From Candidatus Roizmanbacteria bacterium CG_4_9_14_0_2_um_filter_38_17 (lineage in GTDB: Bacteria; Patescibacteriota; Microgenomatia; GCA-00278855): a DNA stretch of 64,000 nucleotides. Location: the NCBI GenBank assembly GCA_002788855.1, contig PFSB01000017.1:35739-99738 (forward strand), read 5' to 3'. The notes under the pieces are model-generated. The model had not been told where the DNA came from. It did no database searches and saw only the letters and a list, made by a program, of their open reading frames with translations. Shown piece after piece: positions 17,599-60,099 of this stretch. The translations under genes and the position numbers were made by a program. Within the stretch, counting starts at the first letter, position 1, and each line of letters begins with the position of its first letter.

Positions 17599-17599
17599 A

Positions 17600-19789: not shown

Positions 19790-19792
19790 CCC

Positions 19793-19868: not shown

Positions 19869-19870
19869 CG

Positions 19871-22234
19871 TTACAGCTGGGCACGCTGGTTTATTTCCGC
19901 TTCCACAACTTCATGGGCTCGCCCATATTTTAGGCGAGAGAGCTTCTTGATAGCTTCGGCAATTTTAAGATTAGACATTCTTTTCTCTGCTTCCAGATCG
20001 CGAGTTAAATCAACAGAGAATGGTGGGACTGGTTCGTTGTTAACTTGAGTTCTCATGTATGCATGAAATCTCTCAATATTGATCAGGTCTGATTCATTAA
20101 AAGTTGGCTGGAATTCGTGTTGAAGGTAATTAGCATCCGTAACTCCCACACGAAAAGCCACAAGTGTTCCTACGTTACCAAAGACAGCATTTTTAACTTC
20201 CTCTTCCATTTGACCAATAAATTGATTAGCCACACACAAATTTAACTTAAATTTACGAGCCTCTGATAAGATTTGTGAGAAATCTGGTGTGGCAAAATTT
20301 TGGAACTCATCAACATAAAGATAAAAATCTTTTCGCAATTCACGAGGCGTATCTACCCTACTCATAGCCGCAACTAGGATTTTTGGCACAATCACCAAAC
20401 CCAAAAACTGAGAATTTTCCTCTCCCAATGCTCCTTTGGATAGGTTGATAAGAAGAATTTTACCTTCATCCATTACTTTGCGAAAATCAAATGCTGACTT
20501 AGATTGACCAATAATATTACGCATGGTTTTATTAGTGACGAAACGACCAAACTTAGATACGATGTAGTCTAGTACTTCAGATTTATGAAAATCACTAGTC
20601 TGGGCAATTTGATCAGTCCAGTAGCGCCTAACAACTGGGTCTTGAACTTTTGGAAGCAATTGTTGAACATATTTAGCATCAGTTAGGACGCGAACTATTT
20701 CCACAAATGTCGCCCCTTCATCACTCATAACTGTCAACATTGCATTCCTGACTGCATGTTCAAAGCGTGGTCCAATAATACCCGTCTTCATGGGATCATA
20801 AAGTTTATACATCAACCCAATGATTGAGTTAGCAATAAAATGCTTTTGCTCTTCGGTTTTAGCTTCCAAGAGATTCATACCCATGGGACGGTCTGTATCT
20901 GATGGGTCAAAATGAATAACGTCTTCAGCTCGCTCAGGTGGTATCATCGGCAGCAAATCCTCAATAAGATCTCCATGTGGATCCATTACGCAGATCCCCT
21001 TGCCAGCGCGAATGTCTTGAATTGCCATGCTTTTTAGTTGCTCAGACTTGCCTACGCCGGTTTTTCCGATGATATACATGTGACGTGCACGATCTTCATC
21101 ATTAAGATAAACAGGGCGGGTCATGCCACGATAGACACTCTTACCAATATACATTCCAGTTTTGGCCATATTAGCTGGTGCTGGTGCACGCTTGGCGTTT
21201 AACCAATAAATGCCTGGAGTTTCAATCGTTTTGTTTGGAAAATGAATAATAGTTGCCAGCTCTTCTGTGGATAAGACGCCGCTACGTTTAAAGCGCTTAA
21301 TACTCAACATAGGTAAATAACGATAAATCACATCCAACATAAACATTCCCTTAAACCGGATTTTGTTAGTAGTGAATTTATTGTGTGTTGAGTTAAATTG
21401 GGAAAAAGATGACTTAATATTGTCCAGGTGCATCTTTGCCAGTGATTTATTGGAAGATGAAACAATAATACGGATTTCTGTCTCAAATCCAGATTTTGAC
21501 ACTTTATTTTCTATTGCTTCAAGTGTTTTAGCCTCCACGTTATACTTGGCCTCTTCTGGATTAGATTCTTTTTTCTTTGTACTAGAGATGTACTCTCTGC
21601 CAGTTTTAGCCCAGTCGTCCTTGGCTGGATAGATCATGTACTGGATCATTGCGCCTTCTCCGGTTCCCATCTTGGCAAGACCTGCCGTTAAAGAAGAAAG
21701 CGGGTCGGTCGGTAAATCTTTATATATTTTAATTGGCTTATGATCTTCCTTTGCTAGTTTTAATGAGGTAAATTCAACGTGGCCTTGTTTAGAGAAAATA
21801 TTAAACTCGCTAACTTCTTTAACTTCTGCTCCAGGATAGGCTCCATGAATATGTTTTTCGACTAAGTCTTTAAGCTCCCGAGGCGTAGATACATAAAATC
21901 GTATATCACCAGCAGTTGCTACGATTTCAAATGTTAGGTGGTCTGGAATCTCCAGCATTTTAAAGATTCCTTCTCCTCCACTACTAATAGTAGACAATGA
22001 TGCAAAGAATTGCTCGGCTGCATCGATCTTTACTTCATTATCGCGAGGAAGCGCAACGTGTAGTAGAGCCATGTCCAATGAGCGATCCTCGCGGTTCCTC
22101 CAGCGCAGGTAAAGAATTAATGCATATGTTACTAAACCAGCTGCTGCAACTAGAAATATAAAGATAGCGGCAATGATTATATAGAGCTCGAGTGAAGATA
22201 TTATGTCTGCTGGTTGGATTGTATTGTTTAGCAT
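19871..22234 (-). CDS. Membrane-anchored P-loop ATPase of the type IV secretion coupling-protein / VirB4-TraG superfamily (AAA_10 / TraG-D_C-like)
   Basis: There is one N-terminal TM helix and a roughly 330-aa unique domain. The Walker A is IIGKTGVGKS, followed by a DPHGD motif (compare DPKGE in VirD4/TraG) and a C-terminal Walker B-type region (LYVDEFQNF). Confidence 0.5.
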   Translation of the reverse strand: MLNNTIQPADIISSLELYIIIAAIFIFLVAAAGLVTYALILYLRWRNREDRSLDMALLHVALPRDNEVKIDAAEQFFASLSTISSGGEGIFKMLEIPDHLTFEIVATAGDIRFYVSTPRELKDLVEKHIHGAYPGAEVKEVSEFNIFSKQGHVEFTSLKLAKEDHKPIKIYKDLPTDPLSSLTAGLAKMGTGEGAMIQYMIYPAKDDWAKTGREYISSTKKKESNPEEAKYNVEAKTLEAIENKVSKSGFETEIRIIVSSSNKSLAKMHLDNIKSSFSQFNSTHNKFTTNKIRFKGMFMLDVIYRYLPMLSIKRFKRSGVLSTEELATIIHFPNKTIETPGIYWLNAKRAPAPANMAKTGMYIGKSVYRGMTRPVYLNDEDRARHMYIIGKTGVGKSEQLKSMAIQDIRAGKGICVMDPHGDLIEDLLPMIPPERAEDVIHFDPSDTDRPMGMNLLEAKTEEQKHFIANSIIGLMYKLYDPMKTGIIGPRFEHAVRNAMLTVMSDEGATFVEIVRVLTDAKYVQQLLPKVQDPVVRRYWTDQIAQTSDFHKSEVLDYIVSKFGRFVTNKTMRNIIGQSKSAFDFRKVMDEGKILLINLSKGALGEENSQFLGLVIVPKILVAAMSRVDTPRELRKDFYLYVDEFQNFATPDFSQILSEARKFKLNLCVANQFIGQMEEEVKNAVFGNVGTLVAFRVGVTDANYLQHEFQPTFNESDLINIERFHAYMRTQVNNEPVPPFSVDLTRDLEAEKRMSNLKIAEAIKKLSRLKYGRAHEVVEAEINQRAQL

Positions 22235-22656: not shown

Positions 22657-22681
22657 GAAATTATTATAGCAGAGACAGCGC

Positions 22682-24882: not shown

Positions 24883-24984
24883 ATTTTCTCCTGCTCGGGA
24901 TTATGCATAAGTGAGTTCCTGACTTTACAGTTGCGGCACAGTTGCTGACTTTCACAGCATTCCTCTTATTCTTAATGCAGTTTA

Positions 24985-29006: not shown

Positions 29007-29449
29007 AATATTTTTTTTAATTCTTTTTGAAATTCTTCAACTTCTACAAATCTTTTAAAAACCGAAGCAAATCTAATATATGCTACTTTATCTATTACTT
29101 TTAAGTGGTCAGCTATTAAGTTGCCAATTTCTCCGCTCTCAATTTCAACTGCGTCACCGTTACGTAATTGCTGCTCAACTTTATTAATTATTTCGTCAAT
29201 CTGATCGTGCGACACTTTAGTTCTTTCAGACGCTTTTAATACTCCATTTTTAACCTTATTTCGATCAAACTGTTCTCGCTTCCCGTCTTTTTTCTTAACA
29301 ATTAATGGCTCTGTTTCGATCCTTTCATATGTTGTATATCTTTTTTCACACTCTAGACATTCTCTTCTGCGCCTAGTTATAGCTAATTCTTGCGAATCGC
29401 GCGTTTCCATCACCTTGCTTTGATCAAAAGAGCAAAATGGACAAATCAT
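29003..29449 (-). CDS. nrdR: Transcriptional repressor NrdR
   Basis: It has an N-terminal zinc ribbon (CPFC...CLEC) and an ATP-cone. Its stop overlaps the nrdJ start. Confidence 0.85.
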   Translation of the reverse strand: MICPFCSFDQSKVMETRDSQELAITRRRRECLECEKRYTTYERIETEPLIVKKKDGKREQFDRNKVKNGVLKASERTKVSHDQIDEIINKVEQQLRNGDAVEIESGEIGNLIADHLKVIDKVAYIRFASVFKRFVEVEEFQKELKKIL

Positions 29450-46683: not shown

Positions 46684-47115
46684 GGGGATGTGTTGATTTG
46701 ACAGGATGAGTACTTTAACAACTTGCAAGCCGAGCTGATTAACTCGCTAAACTTATCAAAAAATCTAATTGCAGAGGATAAAACCCTTGCAGCTTTGAAG
46801 TCCCGTTTGCGCGGGATGGAAGAGGCCTTAATGGCAAAGCGCTTCGCAGCTCGCGCTGCTTTTGCTTACGCTTAAAGGCTGTTTATAGGTCTTTCACTCG
46901 ATGAAGATTTATAGGCACAAACAAAGTCGAGGCGTCAGATAAAGAATCTAGCCTGATCTTTATCGGAGAAATAAGGCAATCCTTAATGATAAGGATAGGT
47001 AAACTATCTTCGATTTGTTAGTTTAATGTCATTAAGTATCAAACTAACTAAGCTTGTGAATGAAGTTGTTTTGCTCGCTTTCTGGACGAGGGGTCACCCC
47101 CCTCCATCTCCACCA
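46684..47115 (+). ncRNA. ssrA: tmRNA (ssrA), about 432 nt, standard (non-permuted) form
   Basis: The 5' end GGGGAUGUGUUGAUUUGACAGG matches the tmRNA 5' consensus. The 3' end has T-arm gaggg-gtcaccc-ccctc, acceptor catctcc, and ACCA. The acceptor pairing 5' ggggatg with 3' catctcc gives a G3:U wobble, the alanine identity pair. An in-frame Ala-rich tag ORF ends ...AARAAFAYA-stop at 46873-46875. The position directly after smpB is canonical. Confidence 0.6.
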
Positions 47116-47121
47116 CGTAAA

Positions 47122-47859
47122 ATGGCTAATCCTCTACTTGTATTTTTAAAATTGCTTTCTCCCAAGCGGTGCGTGAGTTGTAGAAAATTTGGAGCATATT
47201 TTTGTGTTAACTGCTTAAAAAGCATTAAGCCAGTTTTTCATCAAAAATGTATTGCGTGCCAAAGAGTTTCTCATGGTGGAGCTACTCATAGGGACTGCAA
47301 TAAAAGATATGGACTTGATGGGTTGTTCTGCTTGTTTAAATACCAGACAACTATAAGAGCTGGAATAACTAAGCTTAAGTATCAAAAATTAACAGATATT
47401 GAAGACGAGCTTGTAGATTTAATAGGAACTAATTTACTGCTACAAGGCGAGGCTGAGTCGCTAGATGATCTAGAGGAATTTATCTTTTCTAAGCGTCCTA
47501 TTGTAGTGCCCGTACCGCTGCATTGGTGGAAACTGGCACAAAGAGGGTTTAATCAGGCCGAGATTATAAGCGAAGTAGTCGCTAGCGAATACGATCTCCC
47601 AGTTATGCCAAGAGTCCTAAGACGCAAATTTAGATCATCGAGTCAGACAAAGTTAACAAGCAAACAAAGGGTAATAAATGCTAAAAATATATATTCTGTA
47701 AATACAGATTATCTGGAGCAAGGAAAAATTGACCCAGCGCTTTGTAATATTCTATTAGTAGATGATGTAACTACTACTGGCTCTACTTTGAAAGAAGCTG
47801 CAATTGCTTTAAAACGCGTGGGTGTAAAGCGTGTCTGGGGAATAGCTCTCGCCTCATAA
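47122..47859 (+). CDS. comF: ComF-family phosphoribosyltransferase-domain protein
   Basis: It has an N-terminal Cys4 zinc finger (CVSC...CVNC / CIAC) and the C-terminal PRTase motif LLVDDVTTTGST. The start is at the Met after the tmRNA 3' end. Confidence 0.7.
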   Translation: MANPLLVFLKLLSPKRCVSCRKFGAYFCVNCLKSIKPVFHQKCIACQRVSHGGATHRDCNKRYGLDGLFCLFKYQTTIRAGITKLKYQKLTDIEDELVDLIGTNLLLQGEAESLDDLEEFIFSKRPIVVPVPLHWWKLAQRGFNQAEIISEVVASEYDLPVMPRVLRRKFRSSSQTKLTSKQRVINAKNIYSVNTDYLEQGKIDPALCNILLVDDVTTTGSTLKEAAIALKRVGVKRVWGIALAS

Positions 47860-47885
47860 CTTCGAGAACCCGCTTCTCGAAGTTG

Positions 47886-49664
47886 TTATTCAAGTTGAAA
47901 AGAGTAGATTGTGTCTTTGGATAATAGATACACAGTATTGGCTGATTCTGAGACGGTAAAATCTAGTATATTATCTAGCTCTTTCCAGCTATACTGCGCT
48001 TTATATAATCCGTCTTCTCCTAGTGTTATTATTCTGTTGCCATCTAAAAGATATAAATTGTCTAGTTCAGGAGTTTTAACCAATTTCATGTTACTCCCAA
48101 GTTTTTGCTCTAAACCTCGAATATAATAAGAATCACGCCGACCTCCAATAAATTTTAGAATCTGAGAGCCAGAAGGTGAACCCGAAACAACCCAAATCGC
48201 CCCATCAATAGCAAATGTTTGTGGTTCCAATATTTTATAATCACCCAATAAATATGATTTTTTAGAAGAAAAGGTATCCCCAGCAGAAAGATATTTCCAG
48301 ATAGACCCATCGCTGCTTAATAGATACATATTCCCACCAAAGTATTTTAGATCAACAGCTTCTCCCCACTCTTCATCCTTTTCAATAATAGTTTGATCAT
48401 TAATTCCAACTATATTTACACCCTTGTCTGTGAGCATATATAAGCTAGAATTAGCTCCGGTAAGGTTGCTTGCTTTTATGAGCCAACTCCCACCGGCAAC
48501 AACTTCGCTTTTCTTTGTCTGTGCATCCAACTTTGCTACAAGCTGGTTCTTAGAGCTATATAAATACAAATTTGAACCTATTAGGTCTAGTTCATCAGCA
48601 CTGAGATTATCACGCAAAAGTGAGAGCTCAAAAAAAAGCTTGGGCTCTACTTGGTATGTTGCGGTTGCGGCTACTTGGGCATCTTTTAATTTTTGAAGCA
48701 GCTCTTCAACTTGCTTGTATTCAGAATCATTTTTATCTATTTTAAGTAGAAGCTCAGTTAACACTTGTTCTCCTTGGCCCAGAACACTGCGAGCGCGAAT
48801 GCGATTTAATTCAATCAGAGCTGTTCCCTCCTCTAACTTATGCTCGGCCATTGCAATAGATGTTGAAACTTGATCTTGAGAAACGCTTGGCGTGCTTATC
48901 CAACGGACTAATAGAAAAATTGTGGCAGCGATGATAACAAACGCCATGGTTTTAATGGGATAACGACTAATTAAACGCTTTGCGCGGCGCAACTGACGTG
49001 TGAAATTAGTGATCCTATGAATATTTCTGGTTATCCCTGGCAAAACAGCTGCAAGCTTCATTCTTGGTAGTTTAATTTTTATTGGCTGGTCTGCCTTTGC
49101 AATACCTGTGATCTGTAGCAATAACCCTACAGCTTCAAGCTTAGTTTTGTTTTTATTCTGAACTAGCTGTATTTCGTCAATAAGTTCGTCTATACTATCA
49201 ATATCTACGAGCTGCCTAATAAAATTAGCTTTGCCCATAGACTCGAGTCCAGGGGTATCAATGAGAGCCAGTCTGTCTCCATCTTGAAGCTTGCCTTGTG
49301 TCTGCCCACTTTTATCCAGCAACTCTATGGCTTGACCATTGCGAATTAAAAGAACTGTGGCGTTTGATGTATGCACAGTTACCGAATTAGTGTCAATAGA
49401 TACGTGTAGCGCGCCTATTGTCTCGATCTGATCTTGAAATGAAGCTAATAGTTTGTCTATTAATTGTTTGCGAGTGCCATTATTAAACTGCAAGTAACCG
49501 TTAATGGATAAACCATGAAACATCTGATTTATTAACAAGTGCCGACCTTCGGAGCTGGGAGCTGATTTGAGTTTGAGAATAACACCATAGTTATGCTGAA
49601 AATACGCTTGTGACCACACCTGGTGGCCACATATTAATGAGGCAGAGTGAAGCTTGAGGCTCAT
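47886..49664 (-). CDS. Hypothetical bitopic membrane protein (cytoplasmic N-domain, one TM, repeat-rich extracytoplasmic domain)
   Basis: It has an ORF only, with a TM helix near residue 240. It contains the repeat motif on the opposite strand at 49506-49527. Confidence 0.3.
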   Translation of the reverse strand: MSLKLHSASLICGHQVWSQAYFQHNYGVILKLKSAPSSEGRHLLINQMFHGLSINGYLQFNNGTRKQLIDKLLASFQDQIETIGALHVSIDTNSVTVHTSNATVLLIRNGQAIELLDKSGQTQGKLQDGDRLALIDTPGLESMGKANFIRQLVDIDSIDELIDEIQLVQNKNKTKLEAVGLLLQITGIAKADQPIKIKLPRMKLAAVLPGITRNIHRITNFTRQLRRAKRLISRYPIKTMAFVIIAATIFLLVRWISTPSVSQDQVSTSIAMAEHKLEEGTALIELNRIRARSVLGQGEQVLTELLLKIDKNDSEYKQVEELLQKLKDAQVAATATYQVEPKLFFELSLLRDNLSADELDLIGSNLYLYSSKNQLVAKLDAQTKKSEVVAGGSWLIKASNLTGANSSLYMLTDKGVNIVGINDQTIIEKDEEWGEAVDLKYFGGNMYLLSSDGSIWKYLSAGDTFSSKKSYLLGDYKILEPQTFAIDGAIWVVSGSPSGSQILKFIGGRRDSYYIRGLEQKLGSNMKLVKTPELDNLYLLDGNRIITLGEDGLYKAQYSWKELDNILDFTVSESANTVYLLSKDTIYSFQLE

Positions 49665-49903
49665 AGCATAATTAAGCCCAGAATAAAGACACCGATGGCT
49701 AGAAAAAGATGAAAAATACTGATTAGGTTAAAAAGTGGAGAGGCCCCAAGCTTAATTGATTGTATCATTAAGTTAACTTGCCTCCAGACTGCGAATGCAA
49801 AAAAAATGTACATAAAAGCAATTGTAATTAGCATAAATTTGGCAATACCACCTGGGGTTATGCTTGTCAATAAGTCTAAAAATAAATTACTATTCAAGTT
49901 CAT
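49661..49903 (-). CDS. Small hydrophobic membrane protein
   Basis: It is an 80-aa ORF with two predicted TM helices and is start/stop coupled to its neighbours. Confidence 0.25.
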   Translation of the reverse strand: MNLNSNLFLDLLTSITPGGIAKFMLITIAFMYIFFAFAVWRQVNLMIQSIKLGASPLFNLISIFHLFLAIGVFILGLIML

Positions 49904-50480
49904 CTTTATGTTTAGCTATAAATGCTTGTGCTTTTGATGGTTCGTTTTGCTCCCAAACTTCTAGAATTTTCCTGACAACAGCAGCCGGATCTGGAACGTC
50001 TTCAAAGTCTAGATTTGGTTTAGCGCCAGCTGTCTGAATAAATACATCTCCAAAGTTAAAAGTTGTTCTGACGAAACCTGTTCGTCTGAAAGTAATATCT
50101 TCCAGTTGAGTAATTCTCGTCGCGGTTTCTTCTTTCGATAGTAAGGATGGAAACTCAATATCCACCAGCCTATGGTTGGTAACCAGATCAACGTCATAAA
50201 ACCAAAGCAAGAAGCGCATAAATGCATAGCCAAATGTACTCATATACCATATGAATAAAATATAGATAATTAGGTTGAAAGTTATAAACGTAGGCAGAAC
50301 ACCAATTTCAAGTATTAGTGGCACGATGAGCAAAGGCGTAAGCGCTAATAAAATTGCGCTGACTATCCAGGAAATTTGAGTAATGGGATGGCGACGCAAT
50401 AATAATACAATATCTTCGTCACTTGTTTGTGTCTCAAATCGTAATCCCCGTGGTTTATGTATAAAACTTGCAAGTATCAT
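49890..50480 (-). CDS. Bacterial PH-domain (YdbS/bPH_2-like) membrane protein
   Basis: It has two N-terminal TM helices followed by a PH-like domain (DVDLVTNHRLVDIEF...). Confidence 0.45.
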   Translation of the reverse strand: MILASFIHKPRGLRFETQTSDEDIVLLLRRHPITQISWIVSAILLALTPLLIVPLILEIGVLPTFITFNLIIYILFIWYMSTFGYAFMRFLLWFYDVDLVTNHRLVDIEFPSLLSKEETATRITQLEDITFRRTGFVRTTFNFGDVFIQTAGAKPNLDFEDVPDPAAVVRKILEVWEQNEPSKAQAFIAKHKDELE

Positions 50481-52237
50481 TTTCTTTCTATATTATACAG
50501 TGGTCCTACAATTTGAATATTTGCCGGTGCCCTTAGATTGAAATAGCTTTTAAATTCATCTCCATTAAAACTAATTCCATTAATATTCACACTCGTTGTT
50601 CTACCGTTCCCAAAATCTGCTCCGACAGAAACACTAGTAGCATTATCTATTGGCGACCCTCCCCTACTTCTTAGTTCTTGTTTCACTTTGTCTTCATTCC
50701 AGACTTCACCCCCATAAGGATGTGCTTTGTCAGTTTGGTAAAAATGATCGCCCAAATTACTGTCTTTCTTTGCCAGCATTATCACATTGGCAATATCCGC
50801 AACTTCATTTGGTTTTAGCCATGCTGATTTACCATATTCACCGCGCGAACCTTGAGCAGCATAGAAACATGGTGAATCTTTATCATATGCTTTACTATTA
50901 AGATCTTCAAAACTATTTGCGCTTCCGTTTGTATCTTGGGTTCTTTTGGTCCAACTCTTGTTTGATCCCCATACATCTGCTGAACTATAAGTATAGCCTC
51001 CATCGGTTGATGAATACCAAGCTATTATAATCTCACCTCCATTAGTTAAAACCTTACCTGCAGTATCATTTACTGCTTGCTCCCATGCGCCACCTTTTGG
51101 ATCAGTTTTAAATACCTGACAGTATTGATTAGCACAGATAGATTTTCGTCCTCTATCTGTTTGGGCTATAACATATGAGCGAGCGGCAATTGCCTGTGCC
51201 TTTAAAGCTTCACTTGGCCAACTTGCTGGGACTTCGTATATTCTTTTGATATATTCTTCTAGATTTCCACTCCAGATAACATTCCCAGCATCATATCCAT
51301 TCCCATCGTTAACATTGATGGTTGTTTCTATTTGTTGGGATCCATCAAAGCTGTAGTATGCATTTAAAATTGCTTCTGCATTTTGTCCTGCTTGAGCCCT
51401 ACCCAACGCCCCGTATTGGTTCATACCCACTCTGTGCGGAATTCCGTAAGTATAAAAAGCAAGTGCTGGAGAAAATCCAGGATCAATTTTTCTATCATCT
51501 GTGCAAAATAGTGCCCCTGCTCCTAAGCTTATTGGTAAGTTTAAGTTTCCTAATCTTGCGGACAAAATACTTTGTTGGCGGGCAGAAAGCTGGGCAATTT
51601 GGCCTTGTAAATCCGACTGGTATGCTTTTGCTCCCGCTACTTCTTTACGAAAGAAAGCAGCTTGTTCATCTGTTTTTTCTTTTACTATCGCAAGTCGGAC
51701 TTTTTCACTTTTAAGCTCTTCTTTCTTCTCTTCCAGGTTTTTAATAAACAATACTAATTGCACAATTTCGTTACGGTCTTGTTCGAGAACTCGCTTGTTA
51801 TATCCAGCTAGACGAATGGTCTCACCCAAGCTTGCTTTTGTCCCGAACAGCATCTGGATAGTTAAACTGTCTAGCCTTTTATCTTTAATAAAGAACTCGC
51901 GGATGCGCTTTTCAAGTAAGACTTGTTTCTGTGTTAGATTCTTATCTCCCTCATCTATCTTGCGCTCTTTATCTTTAAAACTGGCCTCAACTCGTTTAAT
52001 ACCATCCTGAATATTAGCTAAGTTCTGTTCTAATCCCTTTAGGGTTGTTTCAAGTGGAGCTGTGGCAGATTGACTTTGTTCTAGCTTATTAGATAGATTA
52101 GCAAGCTCCTTTTCAATATCCTCCAGTTCTCCAGCTTGAGCAAAGTTCGTAAACAGTAAAGAGTGAAAAGTAAAGAGAATAAGAATAGCTATAATTGCTA
52201 TGTTTTTTAGTCGCAAAATTTTATTTATAGCTCTCAT
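50477..52237 (-). CDS. SpoIID/LytB-domain protein with long N-terminal coiled coil
   Basis: It has a signal/anchor, about 200 aa of heptad-rich sequence (EnvC-like), and a C-terminal SpoIID-like block (AWYSSTDGGYTYSS). Confidence 0.5.
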   Translation of the reverse strand: MRAINKILRLKNIAIIAILILFTFHSLLFTNFAQAGELEDIEKELANLSNKLEQSQSATAPLETTLKGLEQNLANIQDGIKRVEASFKDKERKIDEGDKNLTQKQVLLEKRIREFFIKDKRLDSLTIQMLFGTKASLGETIRLAGYNKRVLEQDRNEIVQLVLFIKNLEEKKEELKSEKVRLAIVKEKTDEQAAFFRKEVAGAKAYQSDLQGQIAQLSARQQSILSARLGNLNLPISLGAGALFCTDDRKIDPGFSPALAFYTYGIPHRVGMNQYGALGRAQAGQNAEAILNAYYSFDGSQQIETTINVNDGNGYDAGNVIWSGNLEEYIKRIYEVPASWPSEALKAQAIAARSYVIAQTDRGRKSICANQYCQVFKTDPKGGAWEQAVNDTAGKVLTNGGEIIIAWYSSTDGGYTYSSADVWGSNKSWTKRTQDTNGSANSFEDLNSKAYDKDSPCFYAAQGSRGEYGKSAWLKPNEVADIANVIMLAKKDSNLGDHFYQTDKAHPYGGEVWNEDKVKQELRSRGGSPIDNATSVSVGADFGNGRTTSVNINGISFNGDEFKSYFNLRAPANIQIVGPLYNIERK

Positions 52238-53082
52238 TTGTTCATTAAACCAAGAAGTTGACGATTATTCTGATATAGTTTATGAAAGTTATTAGCAAAA
52301 TTTTCTACAAATGAGCTATCGGTGAAAAATGGCAGAAGATCTTCTTTTAAGTAATTCGATTTTATGGCTTGAATGTTTTTATCGAGCAATGTTTGTATTT
52401 CTGCTGTTTTGCTAATTTTTGTAATATCCTTCAATCGCTTTAGATTAGGCTCTACTCTCTGTTCCATAAACCAGATAAGATCGTAATAGTCTCTTCCTTT
52501 AAAAGTAATTAAACCTCCTTTGTCTTTGCGAAATGTGCGTTGAAGTATAGCAGCAATTTTAGAAGAGCACATATCGGCTAAAGAATATCTGTTAATAATA
52601 AAATTAAAGTCTCCGATGTTCTTAATAGAAATTTCCTTCATATAATACTTACTATCCAGTGGGCCCAGATCAATTCGCACAAAAAGAACATTGCTGTCGC
52701 TAGGAGTAATATTTAAACCTACCCGGTCTAACATGGGAAACTTTAGGTACATCTGACTCTTATTCCCTGCTAACTTAAATTCAAAATCTTTCACTTGTAG
52801 ACTGCCAACAAAGTAGTTTGTTAAATCTCTCTCAAATCTAGAAATTGATAGATTATTAAAGTTTGCTACATCAAAATCCAGGTCTTCTGATAATCTGGGT
52901 AGTCCAAAACAGAAACGCAGAGCTGTTCCACCTTTAAAAATAAAGCTTTTACCATATCTAGAGCTGTAGACGTAGTTTAATACATATCCCTGCAATGCTT
53001 CTTTTAGCAGATTCCTTAAATATGGTGGACTAGCGCTTTTTTTGTTTAGCTGGACTATGCTGGAAAGTTTATTTATTAACAT
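52234..53082 (-). CDS. AbiEii/AbiGii-family nucleotidyltransferase toxin (type IV TA)
   Basis: It has GGTALRFCFGLPRLSEDLDFDV, the DUF1814 signature. Confidence 0.75.
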   Translation of the reverse strand: MLINKLSSIVQLNKKSASPPYLRNLLKEALQGYVLNYVYSSRYGKSFIFKGGTALRFCFGLPRLSEDLDFDVANFNNLSISRFERDLTNYFVGSLQVKDFEFKLAGNKSQMYLKFPMLDRVGLNITPSDSNVLFVRIDLGPLDSKYYMKEISIKNIGDFNFIINRYSLADMCSSKIAAILQRTFRKDKGGLITFKGRDYYDLIWFMEQRVEPNLKRLKDITKISKTAEIQTLLDKNIQAIKSNYLKEDLLPFFTDSSFVENFANNFHKLYQNNRQLLGLMNK

Positions 53083-53707
53083 ATTTTGCTATCCTCTCCA
53101 TCTTAGCAGAATTAGATAATTTCACGTAGCTCTTGAATTCTCTAATATCTTCATCCTGTAGCTGACTCCAGTTAATTCGTAAAGATGCTTTAATTTCTGT
53201 TTCTAGGTCTTTACCTAAGTTACGTTTTAGATATAAGAAATCAAATAGTGTTTTAGCTTTTGTGGCGATTGCTATAGTGTATGTATCTCCGCTTACTATT
53301 GAATATCCTGTAAATAATTTATTCTTAATACTCCGATAAGCAAAACTGCCTAGCTGGTTTTGAAACAGCCGGGTTGATTTATTTGTTATGCTTGTGATTT
53401 GGTAGGTTGCTTCAGGAATTAAATTATATTTACTAAGCATGTACTCAAGAGAAAGATAAGAAGGATAACGCAGGATATTTGCTACGTATTCTAGGTAGAG
53501 TTCTTTATTAGACACAGAACTATAATACGGATCAGTAACGTACATGCCCTTTTTTAGACTAATTAAATAACCTTTATTAGCAAGCTGCTCAATTTTTTTA
53601 TCAAGATTCTTACCATCCTTTCCAATAAGCATCCCCGCCGTTGACTTAGTGAAGTACGGTAGCAGCTCAAGCTGAGCCTGATCTTTTATTCCAGATATGC
53701 TAATCAT
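53069..53707 (-). CDS. AbiEi-like antitoxin / transcriptional regulator
   Basis: It lies immediately upstream of the AbiEii gene with a 14-nt overlap. The size and position are as in abiEi-abiEii pairs. Sequence assignment is weak. Confidence 0.45.
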   Translation of the reverse strand: MISISGIKDQAQLELLPYFTKSTAGMLIGKDGKNLDKKIEQLANKGYLISLKKGMYVTDPYYSSVSNKELYLEYVANILRYPSYLSLEYMLSKYNLIPEATYQITSITNKSTRLFQNQLGSFAYRSIKNKLFTGYSIVSGDTYTIAIATKAKTLFDFLYLKRNLGKDLETEIKASLRINWSQLQDEDIREFKSYVKLSNSAKMERIAKYVNK

Positions 53708-53795
53708 AGTGTAGTAATTATGGAATAGATGTTAGAGAAAGTCAAGCATTCGTGCTCAACTTGTTTCGCCTACGAATTTGCGCTACACTTGAACT

Positions 53796-54323
53796 ATGAG
53801 GAAAGCTTTTATATTTTTTGTTTTGTTGATTAGTCCGTGGCTTTTTCAGGTTTCTCTGGTGTATGCTCACGAAATAGCTCCTGCTCCGCATGTGTCCATT
53901 GCTATACCAACACCTGATGCGGCTCAAAGATGTGATATTTGTGGGTCTTGCTATAACCAAGCTACGCAAGTGAATGATGAACCTGGAGACTATGATCAAT
54001 GTGTTTTGTGTTTAACAAAAAATACTGCTGGCCATCCACCTGAGCATAAATGGACGCCGTTGGGTTGTTTGCCAACGTCTCCGGGGTTATTTACCCAGGT
54101 AATATTGCGTGTATTTGTCTCCATTGTGGGTGGCGTTGCTTTCTTAGCAATTCTCTATGGTGGAGGACTAATTCTCTTCTCGAATGGGATACCAGAAAGG
54201 GTTGAGACAGGACGCAGTATTCTTATATCTTCAGTAGCGGGGGTATTACTAGTGATCTTTGCGGTATTTATATTAGAGTTTATCGGCCTGGAGATCTTCG
54301 GGTTACCAGGATTTGGAGGATGA
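53796..54323 (+). CDS. Secreted Cys-rich protein with C-terminal two-helix VirB2/TrbC-like (T4SS-pilin-type) module, paralog 1
   Basis: It has a signal peptide and a Cys-rich segment (CDICGSC...CVLC). The motif WTPLGCLPT precedes two TM helices with GG and GR loop motifs, and the protein ends GLPGFGG. Confidence 0.5.
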   Translation: MRKAFIFFVLLISPWLFQVSLVYAHEIAPAPHVSIAIPTPDAAQRCDICGSCYNQATQVNDEPGDYDQCVLCLTKNTAGHPPEHKWTPLGCLPTSPGLFTQVILRVFVSIVGGVAFLAILYGGGLILFSNGIPERVETGRSILISSVAGVLLVIFAVFILEFIGLEIFGLPGFGG

Positions 54324-54378
54324 TGGCAAATATTGGCAAATATTGGCAATTGGTGTTATAATTTAGATTGGGTAAACC

Positions 54379-54660
54379 ATGAAACATATGAGAACAGTAA
54401 ATATTTCACTACCAGAAAATTTAGCTCAGCGAATTGAAGTTTTGTTAGCACAAAAAGAGTTTGTTTCTCGCTCAGAAGTGGTACGGACAGCGTTAAGAGT
54501 ATTTTTTACGCTGGAGCAAAGAGTGGATCCAGTTGAATTAGTTCCGTTTACAAAAAAACCACTAATAGATATTAAATCTGAACTTAAAGAAGCAGGTCAT
54601 GATTCTGTTTTTGTGGATAGTGTGATAAAGGGCTTAAAGGAATCGTCTGTATATAAGTAA
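54379..54660 (+). CDS. Ribbon-helix-helix (CopG/Arc-like) DNA-binding protein
   Basis: It has VNISLPENLAQRIEVLL...SRSEVVRTALRVFF, a beta-strand followed by two helices as in RHH folds. It starts with the MKHM repeat. Confidence 0.5.
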   Translation: MKHMRTVNISLPENLAQRIEVLLAQKEFVSRSEVVRTALRVFFTLEQRVDPVELVPFTKKPLIDIKSELKEAGHDSVFVDSVIKGLKESSVYK

Positions 54661-54858
54661 TCGTAATTCATGCAAATTCTGCCGCTTAAAGCTGTTGCCA
54701 AAACATCTTAATATCTACTCATTTCGTATTGATCGTAAATGGAGAGCTATTTTTATAGTGACAAGAGATAACAAAGCAGAGATTATTGATATTAATCTAC
54801 ATTATAGGTAAGATGGATTTAGAATTTGTTGGATTTATAGGATAAAGGAGTTAATTAT

Positions 54859-56175
54859 ATGAAGTTATCAAAAATGAGCTTATTTAAGAACCGTCCCTTA
54901 TTACTTAGTTTGGTTTTGCTGTGCATCTTGTATCTAGCTAGCCCAACAAAAGCATATGCTCAAAACATCTCAATTCAACCAGAAGAATTTAGGACAACTG
55001 TTGATGAGTTTGGCATTGATCTCACAAATCTAAATCCCGATGTCGAGTATAAATTAAATATCCAATGCTTAGGTACACAAGTTGACTACAAATATAGCTT
55101 TGTGCCCAAGAGTCTAGATAGGGCCTATTGGCTAGATGAGATCCCAACATCTATTAAATTATACATTTACAAGTCAGGGCAAGGAATGAATTGTACTTTT
55201 CAATCTAATAACTACGATTCCCAGGTTCACACTGTTACTCTTACATGGGGAAGTAATGGTAAAACTCAAAAAAATTACAAAGTTTTGCCAAGAGAGAATT
55301 ACTGCAATGTTGAATTTGATAACGACAATATCGATGTTAATTTCGATCTGAGCACCGCCGGCTTTCGTATTTATCCCGTAGATGGGTATATATTTACTGG
55401 AATTCACGGAGTTATACTTAGAGATAAAGATAATACAATTATATACAATGTTACCGGTATTATCGCGGATGATGATGGTAAAATAAAAGGACATTTGGAT
55501 GAATTTGGAGAATTCTCTAACCCTGGCACATATTCAGTTGAATTAATTAAAAATAGTAATCAATTATGCACTGGCTCATTTAATTTATATAGTTATTTAG
55601 AACCAACTCCAACACCAGATCCTCAATTCACAGCTGTCTGTAACCAAGGTTACGATGACTACTTGTCTAAGTCTGAAAATTCTGGCAAGACCGCAGCTGA
55701 ACTTCTTAGTGGCTTTTGTTCTCAGTCGCAATACTCTAGTTGCCATCAGTGTCCTCAGCCTACTCCAGGACAGCCAGGGATTAATCCAAGGGCAATTTGT
55801 GAGCAATTAGGAGATAGTAATGATCAGTCGTCGTGTTTTAAGTGTTTTGACCCAAAAAATTATGGTTCTGATGCAAATGAACGCTCTAAATCCCCTGGTT
55901 CCTGGACGGCGCTGGGGTGTATACCAACAGATACAGCGGGCTTTGTGAAGTGGTTATTGGGACCTTTCATGGGGATTGCGGGAGGAATTGCCTTTTTGTT
56001 GATCTTAAAGGGTGGATATCAGATCATGTTTTCACAAGGAAATCCGGAGTCAATTACGGATGGAAGAGATACGATAGTTGCCGCAGTCTCTGGACTTGTT
56101 GTGATAATCCTTTCAGTAGCAATTTTGGAGATAATTGGAGTGGAAATATTAAATATACCAGGATTTGGTAGATAA
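54859..56175 (+). CDS. Large secreted protein: N-terminal beta-rich domain, Cys-rich linker, and C-terminal VirB2/TrbC-like two-helix module, paralog 2
   Basis: It has a canonical RBS and a signal peptide (AYA|QN). The C-terminal 150 aa align with paralog 1 (WTALGCIPT...GGIAFLLILKGG...GR...PGFGR). Confidence 0.5.
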   Translation: MKLSKMSLFKNRPLLLSLVLLCILYLASPTKAYAQNISIQPEEFRTTVDEFGIDLTNLNPDVEYKLNIQCLGTQVDYKYSFVPKSLDRAYWLDEIPTSIKLYIYKSGQGMNCTFQSNNYDSQVHTVTLTWGSNGKTQKNYKVLPRENYCNVEFDNDNIDVNFDLSTAGFRIYPVDGYIFTGIHGVILRDKDNTIIYNVTGIIADDDGKIKGHLDEFGEFSNPGTYSVELIKNSNQLCTGSFNLYSYLEPTPTPDPQFTAVCNQGYDDYLSKSENSGKTAAELLSGFCSQSQYSSCHQCPQPTPGQPGINPRAICEQLGDSNDQSSCFKCFDPKNYGSDANERSKSPGSWTALGCIPTDTAGFVKWLLGPFMGIAGGIAFLLILKGGYQIMFSQGNPESITDGRDTIVAAVSGLVVIILSVAILEIIGVEILNIPGFGR

Positions 56176-56221
56176 TGATTATAACCGTTAATAAGTTGAC
56201 AAAAGATAACAGAAACGAGAC

Positions 56222-56327
56222 AAGGCGAGGCTTTTCACTTTAGTGGATAGCCTTGCCTTAAGCGAGTGATTGTCTTATCCGCTTAACTTAAAGGCAAGAC
56301 CTTCCATTTCATGTAGGGTCTTGCCTT
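56222..56327. repeat. Two tandem hairpins of the AAGGCAAGACC family downstream of pilin-like paralog 2 (third partial copy of the hicBA-flanking element core)
   Basis: At 56222-56259 the stem is aaggcgaggct/agccttgcctt. At 56291-56327 the stem is aaggcaagacc/ggtcttgcctt, followed by the same gtctcg tail as copies A and B. Confidence 0.6.
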
Positions 56328-56533
56328 GTCTCGCTTGTTGAATTGTGAACAGTTACTAATCTAGGGTTTGGCAGGTAGTTGATTGTGTATTATGATTACA
56401 TCATGAGAAATACTAAACAAAAACGCATGAAAGCAATAAAGATAAAAAAGCCGTTGAAACATGGCTTAAAGAAACAAGAGACGAGTGGCCGGATAGGTGG
56501 AAATCCAATGAAAGATATTGATATAATTTCATT

Positions 56534-56890
56534 ATGAATGATAAATTGGCATTAACATTACCGGGGGGGTTTGATGTAGATGTTCCTGTTCCTACGGTTG
56601 GGGCTGGGACTCCAACTCCGGATGGCTTGCTGCAGCAAGGTGGGATTAACATAGGGACAATTATTAACTCATTGCTGCCTTTGGTGTTTTGGTTTGCCGG
56701 AATTTTGTTATTTGTTTATCTTATTTATGGAGGGTACAAGATGCTTACCTCGATGGGAGATGAAGGAGCTATAGAAGAAGCAAAAGGCACGATTACCAAT
56801 GCAATTCTGGGGATAGCTATTGTATTTGTGGCATACTTTGTAGCCCAATGGATGGCGAGTGTTTTTGGAATCAACGACCTGTTTGGTTAA
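56534..56890 (+). CDS. Small VirB2/TrbC-like two-TM pilin-type protein, paralog 3
   Basis: It has a Gly/Pro/Thr-rich N-terminus followed by two TM helices. The loop (LIYGGYKMLTSMGDEGAIEEAKG) resembles those of paralogs 1 and 2. Confidence 0.4.
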   Translation: MNDKLALTLPGGFDVDVPVPTVGAGTPTPDGLLQQGGINIGTIINSLLPLVFWFAGILLFVYLIYGGYKMLTSMGDEGAIEEAKGTITNAILGIAIVFVAYFVAQWMASVFGINDLFG

Positions 56891-57864
56891 AAAAGGTGGT
56901 TTTGGGTTAAGCGTGCTCCCTTTGCTGGTTTGTTGATGATAACTCTTTTTACTTCAGGTAGTTGCTTGAGTTTGTTGACAAGTATTTTTGTATTCTTTTC
57001 CTGACAAATAATGTGAACATCCTGTCCGGTATTAATTGTGAAATAAGTTTCCAGTCCCTTGTTTCGCCAACTCTTAACCGCTTTCATTACGATAAGAGTT
57101 CCATTCTGCCAGTAAATCAGCGATGGCCAAGAGGTTAACATTATTGCGTGCAATTCTAATGCTTCCACCTCTAACAATTTTCCAAAAGCCGTAAAATCTT
57201 TTGTTTTAATATACTGGATGGCTTTTTTTATTTTATTATCTATATTTTTTAATCGTGTATCCATAAAGAGGCTTGAGCCTGAAATTGTTTGGCCCTCACT
57301 GGTAGAGATGTCTTTTTTACTGGAACTTACAAGTGCTACAACGTCAACAATGTTCCAGTGATTGGCATTAAAAATTGTTTTGGCAAAAGACGTTTCGCTC
57401 GTATCACCATTCATCCACTGAACAAAGCCATCCGGAATTGAGCGGCAGGCGGATCCAGATCCTTGGCGGGCAAGAATAGAGAGCTCCTTTTCACTTAGAT
57501 TAAGTCCTGCCGATTTTGCTGATGCAACTGTTAAGGCAGCAAATCCTGAGGCAGAAGACGAGAGACCTGTTGAGCTGGAAAAATTATTTATTGATATGAC
57601 TTTTGCATGTGTATTAATTTGAGCTAAAGTACGTACGCGGTCCAGCTGCGTAATTGCACGAGCAGATTCGTCTTTGATCGTTTTACCATTAATAATTATT
57701 TCGTCTTTGGTATATTTTTGTGAAAATTCAATCGTTGTTGTTGTGGTTAAATTGCTTAGATTCATAGCAATACTACCGTTTTCCGGTAGGCGTAAGTTTT
57801 CGTCCTTCCTTCCCCAATACTTAATAAAGGCGATGTTGGATGGGGCTATTGCTGTTGCTTTCAT
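56887..57864 (-). CDS. mvaD: Diphosphomevalonate decarboxylase
   Basis: It has APSNIAFIKYWGRKD, the MVD signature, and a GHMP C-terminal region. Confidence 0.8.
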   Translation of the reverse strand: MKATAIAPSNIAFIKYWGRKDENLRLPENGSIAMNLSNLTTTTTIEFSQKYTKDEIIINGKTIKDESARAITQLDRVRTLAQINTHAKVISINNFSSSTGLSSSASGFAALTVASAKSAGLNLSEKELSILARQGSGSACRSIPDGFVQWMNGDTSETSFAKTIFNANHWNIVDVVALVSSSKKDISTSEGQTISGSSLFMDTRLKNIDNKIKKAIQYIKTKDFTAFGKLLEVEALELHAIMLTSWPSLIYWQNGTLIVMKAVKSWRNKGLETYFTINTGQDVHIICQEKNTKILVNKLKQLPEVKRVIINKPAKGARLTQNHLF

Positions 57865-60061: not shown

Positions 60062-60099
60062 AAGGCAAGGCCTTTAATTTTTATTAAAGGCCTTGCCTT
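60062..60099. repeat. Perfect 15-bp-stem hairpin (AAGGCAAGGCCTTTA / TAAAGGCCTTGCCTT), a member of the AAGGCAAG(A/G)CC palindrome family
   Basis: It sits in the 19-nt gap between the thiolase and DUF35 genes inside the mevalonate operon. Confidence 0.6.

What the first reader, a model, noticed from the sequence alone, without database searches (positions are those of the whole stretch)
53796..56890. Cluster of three paralogous secreted proteins sharing a Cys-rich linker plus a two-helix VirB2/TrbC-like module, one fused to a 230-aa N-terminal beta domain
Paralog 1 (53796-54323) and paralog 2 (54859-56175) share about 150 C-terminal residues: a Cys-rich segment, WTxLGC(L/I)PT, helix 1 ...GG(V/I)AFLxILxGG..., a loop F(S)xGxPExxxxGR, helix 2, and a terminal PGFG(G/R). 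Paralog 3 (56534-56890) has the same two-helix hairpin with a GG and a charged loop. The layout, with a cysteine before helix 1, a Gly-rich first helix, a charged loop and a Gly-ending second helix, is that of T4SS pilins such as VirB2/TrbC. A pilin module fused to a large extracellular domain in paralog 2 is unusual and would fit a tip-adhesin-like or surface-display variant. An RHH regulator gene (54379-54660) is embedded in the cluster and an AbiE toxin-antitoxin pair sits immediately upstream. Together with the T4SS-family ATPase at 19871-22234, this could be part of a host-attachment or DNA/protein-transfer apparatus that is poorly characterised in small-genome bacteria.
Basis: partly seen in the sequence, partly recalled or inferred. 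Interest (0 to 1): 0.7.

Follow-up and report, generated by a model that had tools for sequence, protein, structure and literature searches.

The report
Pilin genes with variable surface domains
Three neighbouring genes in a tiny-genome Roizmanbacteria (Patescibacteria) encode VirB2-like secretion-system pilins, a gene class already described in these bacteria; two belong to a seemingly undescribed subtype that carries a highly variable, cysteine-rich outer domain and may act as the host-binding subunit.

Summary
P1 (53796-54323), P2 (54859-56175) and P3 (56534-56890) are real paralogues with a two-helix hairpin. P3 passes Pfam PF18895 (T4SS_pilin). P1 and P2 fall just below the cut-off but are homologous by profile-profile comparison (99% probability).

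VirB2-like pilin arrays in Patescibacteria are already published (Wang 2023; Quinonero-Coronel 2025). The source genome, GCA_002786635.1, is in the 2025 dataset and is listed as VirB4-positive.

Four points seem not to be described:
- P1 and P2 belong to a large "head-type" subfamily, at least 744 clusters, mostly Microgenomatia. It has a signal peptide, a variable ectodomain of 0-700 aa, a Cys-stapled WTALGCIPT hairpin, the pilin hairpin and a PGFG end.
- A head gene is almost always followed within -4 to +12 nt by a P3-type partner, then by six further short pilins. All are positional orthologues in a fixed order.
- A SpoIID wall-hydrolase gene is the divergent neighbour in 64 of 70 loci.
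- The ectodomain is replaced between near relatives while the module stays 98% identical.

The RHH gene is the antitoxin of a decayed toxin-antitoxin cassette, not a conserved regulator. The AbiE pair is a lineage-specific insertion. No assembly into a pilus has been shown.

The parts
53796..54323 (+). P1: small head-type VirB2-like pilin (175 aa). Signal peptide aa 1-24 (VYA|H). Cys-rich linker with six Cys (46, 49, 52, 69, 72, 91), including a CxxC. Beta-hairpin WTPLGCLPT, helices 96-127 and 133-168, tail PGFGG.
   Evidence: ORF. PF18895 23.6 bits, E 5.5e-5. Module profile 116.3 bits. AF2 pLDDT 77.7, with the hairpin above 90. An orthologous small head gene lies in Roizmanbacteria locus L021.
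54859..56175 (+). P2: large head-type pilin (438 aa). Signal peptide aa 1-34 (54859-54960). Species-specific beta-rich ectodomain aa 35-245 (54961-55593). Pro/Thr and Cys-rich linker aa 246-345 (55594-55893). Pilin module aa 346-438 (55894-56172) ending IPGFGR.
   Evidence: ORF. PF18895 26.2 bits. NF045849 weak hit. Module profile 142.7 bits. AF2: module pLDDT 80-96, N-terminal region low. Weak tandem Ig-like Foldseek hits. 12 Cys in the mature protein. The ectodomain has no homologue, while the module is 98% identical to P0001.
56534..56890 (+). P3: partner-type short pilin (118 aa). It has no classical signal peptide and no Cys. Helical hairpin at about aa 45-108.
   Evidence: PF18895 44.3 bits, above the 26.6 cut-off. 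NF045849 25.9 bits. Its best cross-locus hits are all 'partner' genes that directly follow a head gene.
50477..52237 (-). SpoIID-domain peptidoglycan hydrolase (586 aa). It is the conserved divergent neighbour of the head pilin gene and a candidate functional analogue of VirB1.
   Evidence: PF08486 63.4 bits. Divergent and adjacent to the head gene in 64 of 70 related loci, and within 1-1.7 kb in three more. Same arrangement in L074 and L021.
52234..53707 (-). AbiEii toxin (52234-53082) and AbiEi antitoxin (53069-53707). A lineage-specific insertion between SpoIID and P1, not part of the pilin system.
   Evidence: Pfam AbiEii 1e-21. PADLOC AbiEi 1.8e-44 and AbiEii 2.8e-32. Found in only 1 of 80 related loci, and at a different position there.
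54379..54811 (+). Decayed type II toxin-antitoxin cassette inserted between P1 and P2: RHH antitoxin (54379-54660) plus a frameshifted and deleted RelE/HigB-like toxin remnant (54671-54811).
   Evidence: RHH_1 25.8 bits. The remnant is 48% identical over 40 aa to the intact 84-aa toxin paired with an RHH after the second array. No RHH homologue in the 80 related loci. L021 carries an unrelated 133-aa gene at the same spot.
56195..56350 (+). Strongly structured REP-like palindromic element in the unusually long (358 nt) P2-P3 spacer. Possibly a terminator or stabiliser that uncouples P3 from P2.
   Evidence: MFE -68.9 kcal/mol, z -8.9. Hairpin arms recur at four other places in the window: palindromes at 5512-5548, 6177-6213 and 60062-60099, and a single arm at 25348-25364; 9 arm matches in all against 0.18 expected. 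In relatives the head-to-partner gap is -4 to +12 nt.
19871..22234 (-). VirD4-like coupling-protein homologue (787 aa, N-terminal TM segment). Same family as the ATPase encoded beside VirB3/VirB4 in a relative. Here it lies 32 kb from the pilins, next to tRNA genes, an integrase and a PIN/Phd pair.
   Evidence: TrwB_AAD_bind, DUF87 and TraG-D_C. 35% identity over 690 aa, E 2e-142, to L096 724 aa. NCBI nr name 'type IV secretion system DNA-binding domain-containing protein'.

Best explanation
P1, P2 and P3 are the 5' 'head' of a split, conserved set of nine VirB2-like (PF18895) pilin genes belonging to the T4SS-like apparatus of a Roizmanbacteria (Microgenomatia, Patescibacteria) genome. The other six short pilins lie about 8 kb downstream, just past the window end and behind a mevalonate operon.

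Each protein inserts in the membrane as a helical hairpin with both ends outside and the loop inside.

P1 and P2 are 'head-type' subunits. They consist of a Sec signal peptide, a variable disulfide-rich ectodomain, a disulfide-stapled beta-hairpin (WTALGCIPT), the hairpin and a PGFG end. P3 is their cognate 'partner' subunit.

Inferred mechanism: the short pilins polymerise into a T4SS-dependent filament or channel extension. The head-type subunits are incorporated in low copy, at the tip or at initiation, and display a fast-changing ectodomain that recognises the host cell surface. The divergently encoded SpoIID hydrolase opens the wall for the structure.

Shown: family membership, architecture, gene order, orthology, ectodomain replacement and linkage to T4SS genes in relatives.
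Inferred: topology, disulfides, polymerisation, tip or adhesin role, and the role of SpoIID.
For: Family membership:
- PF18895 hits.
- hhalign of the head module against partner and array profiles gives 99.1% probability, E 1e-18.

Literature:
- Pilin arrays of this family are essential in S. epibionticum and lie inside its T4SS cluster.
- 441 arrays have been reported, most often in Microgenomatia.

Genome context:
- The source genome is VirB4-positive.
- A second array of six pilins follows, then a VirB6/TrbL-like polytopic protein.
- A relative has, in order: array, VirB6-like, T4CP-like, PrgI/VirB3-like, TraC-like and VirB4, all within 11 kb.

Conserved architecture:
- 79 of 80 loci have a head gene followed by a partner, with a gap of -4 to +12 nt in about 70 of 77.
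- Positional orthology holds for 78 of 78 partners. For the seven short-pilin positions the same-position rate is 75-99%, except position 5 at 39%.

Both ends outside:
- Head types have signal peptides (65 of 84).
- Cys-rich extensions occur on the N side and, in some proteins, on the C side of the hairpin.
- The total Cys count is even in 59 of 81, and 219 of 221 have a Cys within 45 aa upstream of the GC cysteine.

Recognition role:
- Ectodomain length ranges from 0 to 700 aa. Pfam finds only Ig-like folds, in 2 of 42 proteins.
- The P2 module is 98% identical to P0001 while the N-terminal 240 aa are unrelated.

SpoIID is the divergent neighbour in 64 of 70 loci.
Against: - No experiment shows that any PF18895 protein forms a pilus.
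- The PDB profile search finds no pilins.
- TrbC/VirB2 Pfam scores are far below the cut-off (12-14 bits against 27.9).
- No virB4 lies within +/-10 kb of the head gene in 80 loci.
- One single-scaffold 1.02 Mb genome (GCA_001780985.1, L064) has head and partner genes but is listed VirB4-negative.
- The head-type loop is neutral to acidic (-0.4), unlike the basic loops of partner and array pilins. This may mean it does not pack like a standard subunit.
- The P2 ectodomain model has low confidence.
Confidence: 0.6

Rival explanations
1. The proteins are membrane-anchored surface-display or envelope proteins that use the helical hairpin only as an anchor. Together with SpoIID and the other conserved upstream genes they form a fixed hetero-oligomeric envelope complex (wall remodelling, division or attachment plaque). 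They do not depend on VirB4 and never polymerise into a pilus.
For: - Strict synteny with SpoIID (64 of 70 loci), the 196-aa membrane protein (66 loci) and the 592-aa protein (58 loci), rather than with virB4.
- A fixed set of ancient orthogroups in a fixed order looks like a stoichiometric complex.
- One single-scaffold genome with head and partner genes is listed VirB4-negative.
- The short pilins lack signal peptides.
Against: - The family is homologous to PF18895 pilins, which are essential and encoded inside the T4SS cluster in Saccharibacteria.
- In a relative, the array is followed by VirB6-like, T4CP-like, VirB3-like, TraC-like and VirB4 genes within 11 kb.
- The source genome is VirB4-positive.
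- The VirB4-negative call may reflect HMM sensitivity.
Confidence: 0.2
2. The three genes are recent, redundant paralogues kept for antigenic or host-range variation of one major pilin. This is the explanation suggested in the literature for Patescibacteria pilin arrays, by analogy with Bartonella and Anaplasma VirB2 paralogues.
For: - Low identity between array members (23-39%). The paper reports an average of 25% and proposes this reading.
- P1 and P2 are a lineage-specific duplication of the head type, also seen in L021, L035, L053 and L054.
- Strain-level gain or loss of one array pilin (112 aa against 160 aa), with assemblies breaking at that point.
Against: - Each position has its own orthologue across Microgenomatia: 78 of 78 partners, 183 of 184 array pilins, and 75-99% at the same position except position 5. 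The paralogues are therefore ancient and not interchangeable.
- Variation is concentrated in the head ectodomain, not across the array.
Confidence: 0.1
3. The two-helix module is a holin, bacteriocin-immunity or other small-membrane-protein family unrelated to secretion. The resemblance to VirB2 is only compositional.
For: - A weak Phage_holin_3_5 hit for P1 (E 0.31).
- Helical hairpins are structurally generic.
Against: - PF18895 is above the cut-off for P3, and profile-profile probability is 99% for P1 and P2.
- Weak but consistent hits to TrbC and to the Mycoplasma ICE pilin-like family.
- Conserved linkage to VirB6-like, VirB3-like and VirB4 genes in relatives.
- No phage or bacteriocin genes nearby.
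Confidence: 0.02

Closest known systems
VirB2-like pilin arrays of the Patescibacteria T4SS (S. epibionticum ML1 SEML1_0006-0019; N. lyticus TM7x; survey of Quinonero-Coronel et al. 2025, PMC12102498)
   Same: - Same Pfam family (PF18895).
- Tandem arrays of 2-11 divergent pilins, sometimes interrupted by a non-pilin gene, and most abundant in Microgenomatia.
- The source genome is part of that dataset and is VirB4-positive.
   Different: - The papers read here do not describe a head-type subclass with a signal peptide, disulfide-stapled junction and variable ectodomain. One states that no adhesins were detected.
- They do not describe the tightly coupled head-partner pair, the positional orthology or the SpoIID neighbour.
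- They suggest that the paralogues serve variation. The data here indicate fixed, non-redundant subunits.
VirB2 / TrbC / TraA conjugative pilins of diderm T4SS (Pfam PF04956)
   Same: - Small helical hairpin with Gly-rich helices and a short polar loop.
- Predicted topology with both ends outside and the loop inside. P1 and P2 have a cleavable signal peptide.
   Different: - PF04956 scores of 12-14 bits against a cut-off of 27.9.
- The organism is a monoderm. The genes are not next to virB3/virB4 in the window.
- P2 carries an ectodomain of about 310 aa, so head-to-tail cyclisation is implausible.
- P3 has no signal peptide.
- The protein ends in PGFG with no evidence of C-terminal processing.
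Archaeal Ced/Ted conjugation-like pilins (A. pernix pilus, PDB 8dfu)
   Same: - A VirB2-like hairpin in an organism without an outer membrane.
   Different: - No sequence relationship was detected.
Mycoplasma ICE Mbov_0395 pilin-like conjugal transfer protein (NCBIfam NF045849)
   Same: - Weak profile hits for P3 (25.9 bits) and P2 (19.6 bits).
- A wall-less or monoderm T4SS context of the MPF-FATA type.
   Different: - Both scores are below the family cut-off of 40 bits.
- No ICE context here.
Minor (pseudo)pilin sets and tip adhesins of type IV pili and type II secretion; VirB5 and PrgB adhesins of T4SS (functional analogy only)
   Same: - A fixed set of several non-redundant pilin paralogues in a conserved order.
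- One subunit carries a large variable domain that could sit at the tip and bind the target.
   Different: - No homology: the folds and the assembly machinery differ.
- The tip location of the head type is inference only.

Membership tests
Pfam PF18895 T4SS_pilin | Whole-protein score at or above the gathering cut-off (26.6 bits) | tested here: met
   P3 scores 44.3 bits, E 1.9e-11.
Pfam PF18895 T4SS_pilin | The same criterion applied to P1 and P2 | tested here: inconclusive
   P2 scores 26.2 and P1 23.6 bits, just below 26.6. Homology is nevertheless established: hhalign of the head module against partner and array profiles gives 99.1% probability, E 1.6e-18 and 4.9e-19, and 34 of 42 homologues hit PF18895.
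Pfam PF18895 T4SS_pilin | Two long hydrophobic helices joined by a short polar loop | tested here: met
   AF2 models: P2 helices 359-390 and 396-429 at pLDDT 87-96; P1 helices 96-127 and 133-168 at pLDDT above 90.
Patescibacteria VirB2-like pilin array (Quinonero-Coronel 2025) | Two to eleven PF18895 genes in tandem or separated by one non-pilin gene | tested here: met
   The order is P1, RHH, P2, P3. Six more pilins follow 8 kb downstream.
Patescibacteria VirB2-like pilin array (Quinonero-Coronel 2025) | The genome encodes a VirB4 ATPase | tested here: met
   GCA_002786635.1 is listed 'Presence of VirB4: Yes' in Table S1. This was not verified on sequence, because virB4 lies outside the window. 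A relative has VirB4 about 9 kb beyond its array.
Patescibacteria VirB2-like pilin array (Quinonero-Coronel 2025) | Pilin genes close to virB4 (within 20 CDS) | tested here: not met
   No VirB4 among the window ORFs scanned, and none within +/-10 kb of the head gene in 80 loci. In the relative L096 the array, but not the head pair, is within about 10 CDS of virB4.
VirB2/TrbC pilin (Pfam PF04956) | Score at or above the gathering cut-off (27.9 bits) | tested here: not met
   P2 scores 12.3 bits (E 0.2) and P3 14.0 bits (E 0.059). P1 gives no hit.
VirB2/TrbC pilin (Pfam PF04956) | N-terminal signal peptide removed before assembly | tested here: inconclusive
   P1 and P2 have classical signal peptides (VYA|H, AYA|Q). 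P3 and most short pilins do not: 4 of 77 partners and 12 of 178 array pilins. Cleavage itself cannot be tested here.
VirB2/TrbC pilin (Pfam PF04956) | C-terminal processing or head-to-tail cyclisation; polymerisation with phospholipid into a pilus | not testable with these tools
   This needs mass spectrometry or cryo-EM. 168 of 221 head-type proteins end [IL]PG[FL] plus 0-4 residues, which argues against a long cleaved C-terminal peptide.
VirB2/TrbC pilin (Pfam PF04956) | Fold match to solved conjugative pilins | tested here: inconclusive
   [not shown]
Holin / bacteriocin-immunity small membrane proteins | Significant profile match, with a phage or bacteriocin gene context | tested here: not met
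   The best hit is Phage_holin_3_5 at E 0.31. The neighbours are housekeeping, toxin-antitoxin and pilin genes.
PGF-CTERM / sortase-type C-terminal sorting signals | The motif precedes a C-terminal TM helix and a basic tail | tested here: not met
   Read directly from the sequence: PGFG(G/R) follows the second helix and is the very end of the protein.

The most novel reading that the evidence does not exclude
The head-type family would be the missing host-recognition component of the Patescibacteria T4SS-like pilus. It would be a VirB2-like pilin fused to a rapidly exchanged, disulfide-rich ectodomain, loaded with its partner subunit at the tip or start of a heteromeric filament. That filament would be built from eight fixed pilin orthogroups and pushed through the wall with the help of a dedicated SpoIID hydrolase. 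This would be the first conjugative-type pilin that is itself the adhesin, and a genomic marker of host specificity in Microgenomatia.
Probability: 0.3. Interest if true: 0.75.

Novelty: new variant of a known kind. Interest (0 to 1): 0.5.

Why it matters
Patescibacteria make up a large share of uncultured bacteria and appear to live attached to host cells. Their T4SS-like system is essential in the one species tested, but what it does and how it recognises hosts are unknown. A published survey found no adhesins.

The head-type subfamily combines a conserved pilin module with a swappable outer domain. It has a dedicated partner, a fixed gene order and a conserved wall-hydrolase neighbour. This gives a concrete candidate for the specificity determinant and a testable model of the filament's composition.

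The fixed positional orthology also argues against reading the arrays as simple antigenic variation.

The base finding, VirB2-like pilins in a CPR genome, is no longer new.

Tried and rejected
- PDB sequence searches. Profile searches with the head alignment (0 hits) and with the short-pilin alignment (designed proteins and GPCR helices) found no pilins.
- Promoter and terminator scan of 53600-57100. Counts equal the shuffled expectation (12 against 11.2, and 2 against 2.6). The near-consensus promoters before the RHH gene and P3 are suggestions only.
- Search for a P-loop VirB4 within +/-10 kb of the head gene in 80 loci found none.
VirB4 of the source genome therefore rests on the published table.
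- Table S3 of the 2025 paper is cut in the stored copy, so I could not check whether P1-P3 are listed there.
- Rejected readings: RHH as a pilin regulator; zinc-finger hits of the Cys linker (E 0.07-0.16); PGFG as a PGF-CTERM-like sorting signal (wrong position).


Full report
OBSERVATION

The four ORFs are present as described. P1 (175 aa) and P2 (438 aa) align over 119 residues at 39% identity, E 8e-28. P3 (118 aa) is a distant paralogue, E 3e-6 to P2. A profile of the shared module finds only these three ORFs in the six-frame translation of the window. The shared region is about 120 aa rather than 150.

FAMILY

Pfam places the module in PF18895 (T4SS_pilin). P3 scores 44.3 bits against a cut-off of 26.6, P2 26.2 and P1 23.6. 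There are weak hits to TrbC/VirB2 (PF04956) and to the Mycoplasma ICE pilin-like family NF045849. Profile-profile comparison of the P1/P2 module with profiles of short pilins gives 99.1% probability.

WHAT IS ALREADY KNOWN

Wang et al. 2023 reported essential predicted pilins inside the T4SS cluster of Southlakia epibionticum. Quinonero-Coronel et al. 2025 searched 3,035 Patescibacteria genomes with PF18895 and PF04956. [quoted passage not shown] A 2025 review repeats this.

[quoted passage not shown] That genome is in the 2025 dataset and is listed as VirB4-positive. NCBI calls all three proteins hypothetical. UniProt calls P2 'Ig-like domain-containing'. The core interpretation is therefore correct but no longer new.

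THE HEAD-TYPE SUBFAMILY

All 42 homologues of P2 share only the C-terminal 20-45% of the query. The alignment shows a strongly conserved module, sWTALGCIPT...GIAGGIAFLLI..GG..I..S.GNPE....G...I..A..GL..I.FS..LL..IGV.IL.IPGFG, behind N-terminal regions that cannot be aligned.

An exhaustive profile search gives 744 representatives at E <= 1e-30. Almost all have the module at the extreme C-terminus, in proteins of 114-820 aa.

In species-representative genomes the family is essentially confined to Microgenomatia: Gottesman-, Woese-, Shapiro-, Roizman-, Beckwith- and Daviesbacteria.

Other features:
- Length runs from 95 to 801 aa, median 193.
- 65 of 84 have a signal-peptide-like N-terminus, against 4 of 77 partners and 12 of 178 array pilins.
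- 221 of 257 carry [AS][LIVM]GC[ILV]. Of these, 219 have a Cys within 45 aa upstream (102 as CxxC), and 168 end [IL]PG[FL] plus 0-4 residues.
- The total Cys count is even in 59 of 81. The minimal forms have exactly 1+1 Cys.
- Mature P1 has 6 Cys and mature P2 has 12.

I infer a conserved extracellular disulfide that staples the segment before helix 1.

Cys-rich extensions also occur C-terminal to the hairpin: the L021 801-aa protein, the 160-aa array pilin, and 8 of 221 proteins overall. Both termini must therefore face outward, which is the VirB2 topology.

Pfam recognises only Ig-like folds (Big_7, Filamin), in 2 of 42 ectodomains. P2's own ectodomain has no detectable homologue. It is modelled as a low-confidence beta-sandwich. 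P0001 has a module 98% identical to P2's, but its N-terminal 240 aa are unrelated. This pattern is typical of recognition proteins.

GENE ORDER

In 79 of 80 related loci one head-type gene (two in L021, L035, L053 and L054) is followed at once by a short pilin. The gap is -4 to +12 nt in about 70 of 77 loci. In about 45 loci, five to seven further short pilins follow, either directly or 5-10 kb downstream.

These are positional orthologues. All 78 partners hit a partner best, and 183 of 184 array pilins hit an array pilin best. In 11 loci with seven short pilins, the best hit is at the same position in 75-99% of comparisons. Position 5 is the exception at 39%, because it is confounded with position 6. 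The array is thus a set of about eight ancient, non-interchangeable subunits rather than a pool of recent variants.

In the source genome the remaining six pilins start about 0.9 kb past the window end. They lie behind the mevalonate operon and a divergent ECF sigma gene. This arrangement is shared with about 30 loci. One array pilin is present or absent between strains, and most assemblies break there.

LINK TO THE SECRETION MACHINERY

After the second array come an RHH/RelE pair and a 503-aa polytopic protein. One of 26 members of that protein's family reaches Pfam TrbL/VirB6 at E 4.9e-6.

In a relative (GCA_964448085.1) the array is followed within 11 kb by, in order, the VirB6-like gene, a T4CP-like ATPase, a PrgI/VirB3-like gene, a TraC-like gene and a VirB4 gene (DUF87, AAA_10, P-loop_TraG).

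The window's 787-aa ATPase is 35% identical (E 2e-142) to that T4CP-like protein. Here, however, it sits 32 kb away beside tRNA genes, an integrase and a PIN/Phd pair. No VirB4 lies in the window.

One caveat: a single-scaffold Gottesmanbacteria genome with head and partner genes is listed VirB4-negative.

NEIGHBOURS

A SpoIID-domain hydrolase is the divergent, adjacent neighbour of the head gene in 64 of 70 loci with enough upstream sequence, and lies within 1-1.7 kb in three more. The 196-aa membrane protein, the 592-aa protein and a ComF-like gene are also conserved upstream. The 2025 paper notes that most pilin-bearing genomes lack VirB1. SpoIID is a candidate functional substitute; this is inference.

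In the window, the AbiE pair is inserted between SpoIID and P1. It is absent from that position elsewhere.

The RHH gene is followed by a frameshifted RelE/HigB-like remnant at 54671-54811 and has no counterpart in the related loci. L021, also a Roizmanbacteria, has the same order of small head, insert, large head and partner, but with an unrelated insert. RHH is therefore the antitoxin of a decayed cassette, not a pilin regulator.

The 358-nt P2-P3 spacer, an outlier, contains a REP-like structured element.

VERDICT

It is wrong about the regulator and out of date about novelty.

What remains of interest is the head-type subclass and the fixed architecture around it, which I did not find described in the papers searched. 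Function remains inferred.

Noticed in passing
window 56195-56350; also 5512-5548, 6177-6213, 60062-60099, 25348-25364: A REP-like intergenic palindrome family, AAGGCAAGACCTTnCAT / ATGnAAGGTCTTGCCTT. There are 9 arm matches against 0.18 expected. In the P2-P3 spacer, three hairpins nest inside an outer stem (MFE -68.9 kcal/mol, z -8.9).
   Followed up: partly
window 54671-54811 (+): Remnant of a RelE/HigB-like toxin gene, frameshifted and internally deleted, directly after the RHH gene. An intact RHH (95 aa) plus toxin (84 aa) paralogue sits after the second pilin array (L086 5236-5777).
   Followed up: yes
L086 6012-8537 (about 0.9-3.4 kb past the window end); L087: A second array of six short PF18895 pilins lies behind a divergent ECF sigma gene. 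One pilin (112 aa, a near-duplicate of the core of the 160-aa one) is missing in another strain. Most public contigs of this organism end inside this array.
   Followed up: partly
P3 (window 56534-56570) and the short pilins of loci L001-L080 and L086: The short pilins lack a hydrophobic signal peptide but start with a conserved very short N-terminus. Partners have M-x(2-6)-[LF]-A-Q-x-L-x-L-P-G. Array pilins have M-x(2-5)-[AVI]-[YF]-A. This looks like the -3/-1 end of a signal peptide without its h-region, and could be an unrecognised short leader.
   Followed up: partly
P0043, P0044, P0046, P0054, P0066: A few database proteins carry 3-8 pilin modules in one ORF (for example 820 aa with 8 modules). 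They are either true fused arrays or stop codons read through under an alternative genetic code.
   Followed up: no
L021 8573-10978: An 801-aa head-type protein has the pilin module in the middle (aa 511-602), followed by a Cys-containing C-terminal extension of about 200 aa. This supports a topology with both ends outside.
   Followed up: partly
L064 (MFJV01000001.1, GCA_001780985.1): A single-scaffold 1.02 Mb Gottesmanbacteria genome has head and partner pilin genes but is listed 'VirB4: No' in the 2025 survey. Either its VirB4 is divergent or the pilin set does not depend on VirB4.
   Followed up: no
window 47026-52237 (-/+) and 80 related loci: A conserved block lies upstream of the head pilin across Microgenomatia: a ComF-like phosphoribosyltransferase, a 592-aa unknown protein, a 196-aa two-TM PH-like protein and SpoIID. 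The listed ORF start 47026 of the ComF-like gene overlaps the tmRNA (46684-47115). Public gene calls start it at about 47122.
   Followed up: partly
window 17370-23358: A possible integrated-element remnant: two tRNA-Met, a tyrosine integrase (18777-19664), tRNA-Ile(tat) and tRNA-Ala, the T4CP-like ATPase, a 140-aa ORF overlapping its start, and a PIN/Phd toxin-antitoxin pair.
   Followed up: no
window 23461-29449: The class II ribonucleotide reductase gene (25494-29006) carries an intein with a LAGLIDADG endonuclease, with NrdR upstream. An AdoCbl-II riboswitch (24904-24979, -) precedes a 473-aa protein with no Pfam match and a Cys-rich C-terminus, next to a cobalamin adenosyltransferase gene.
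   Followed up: no
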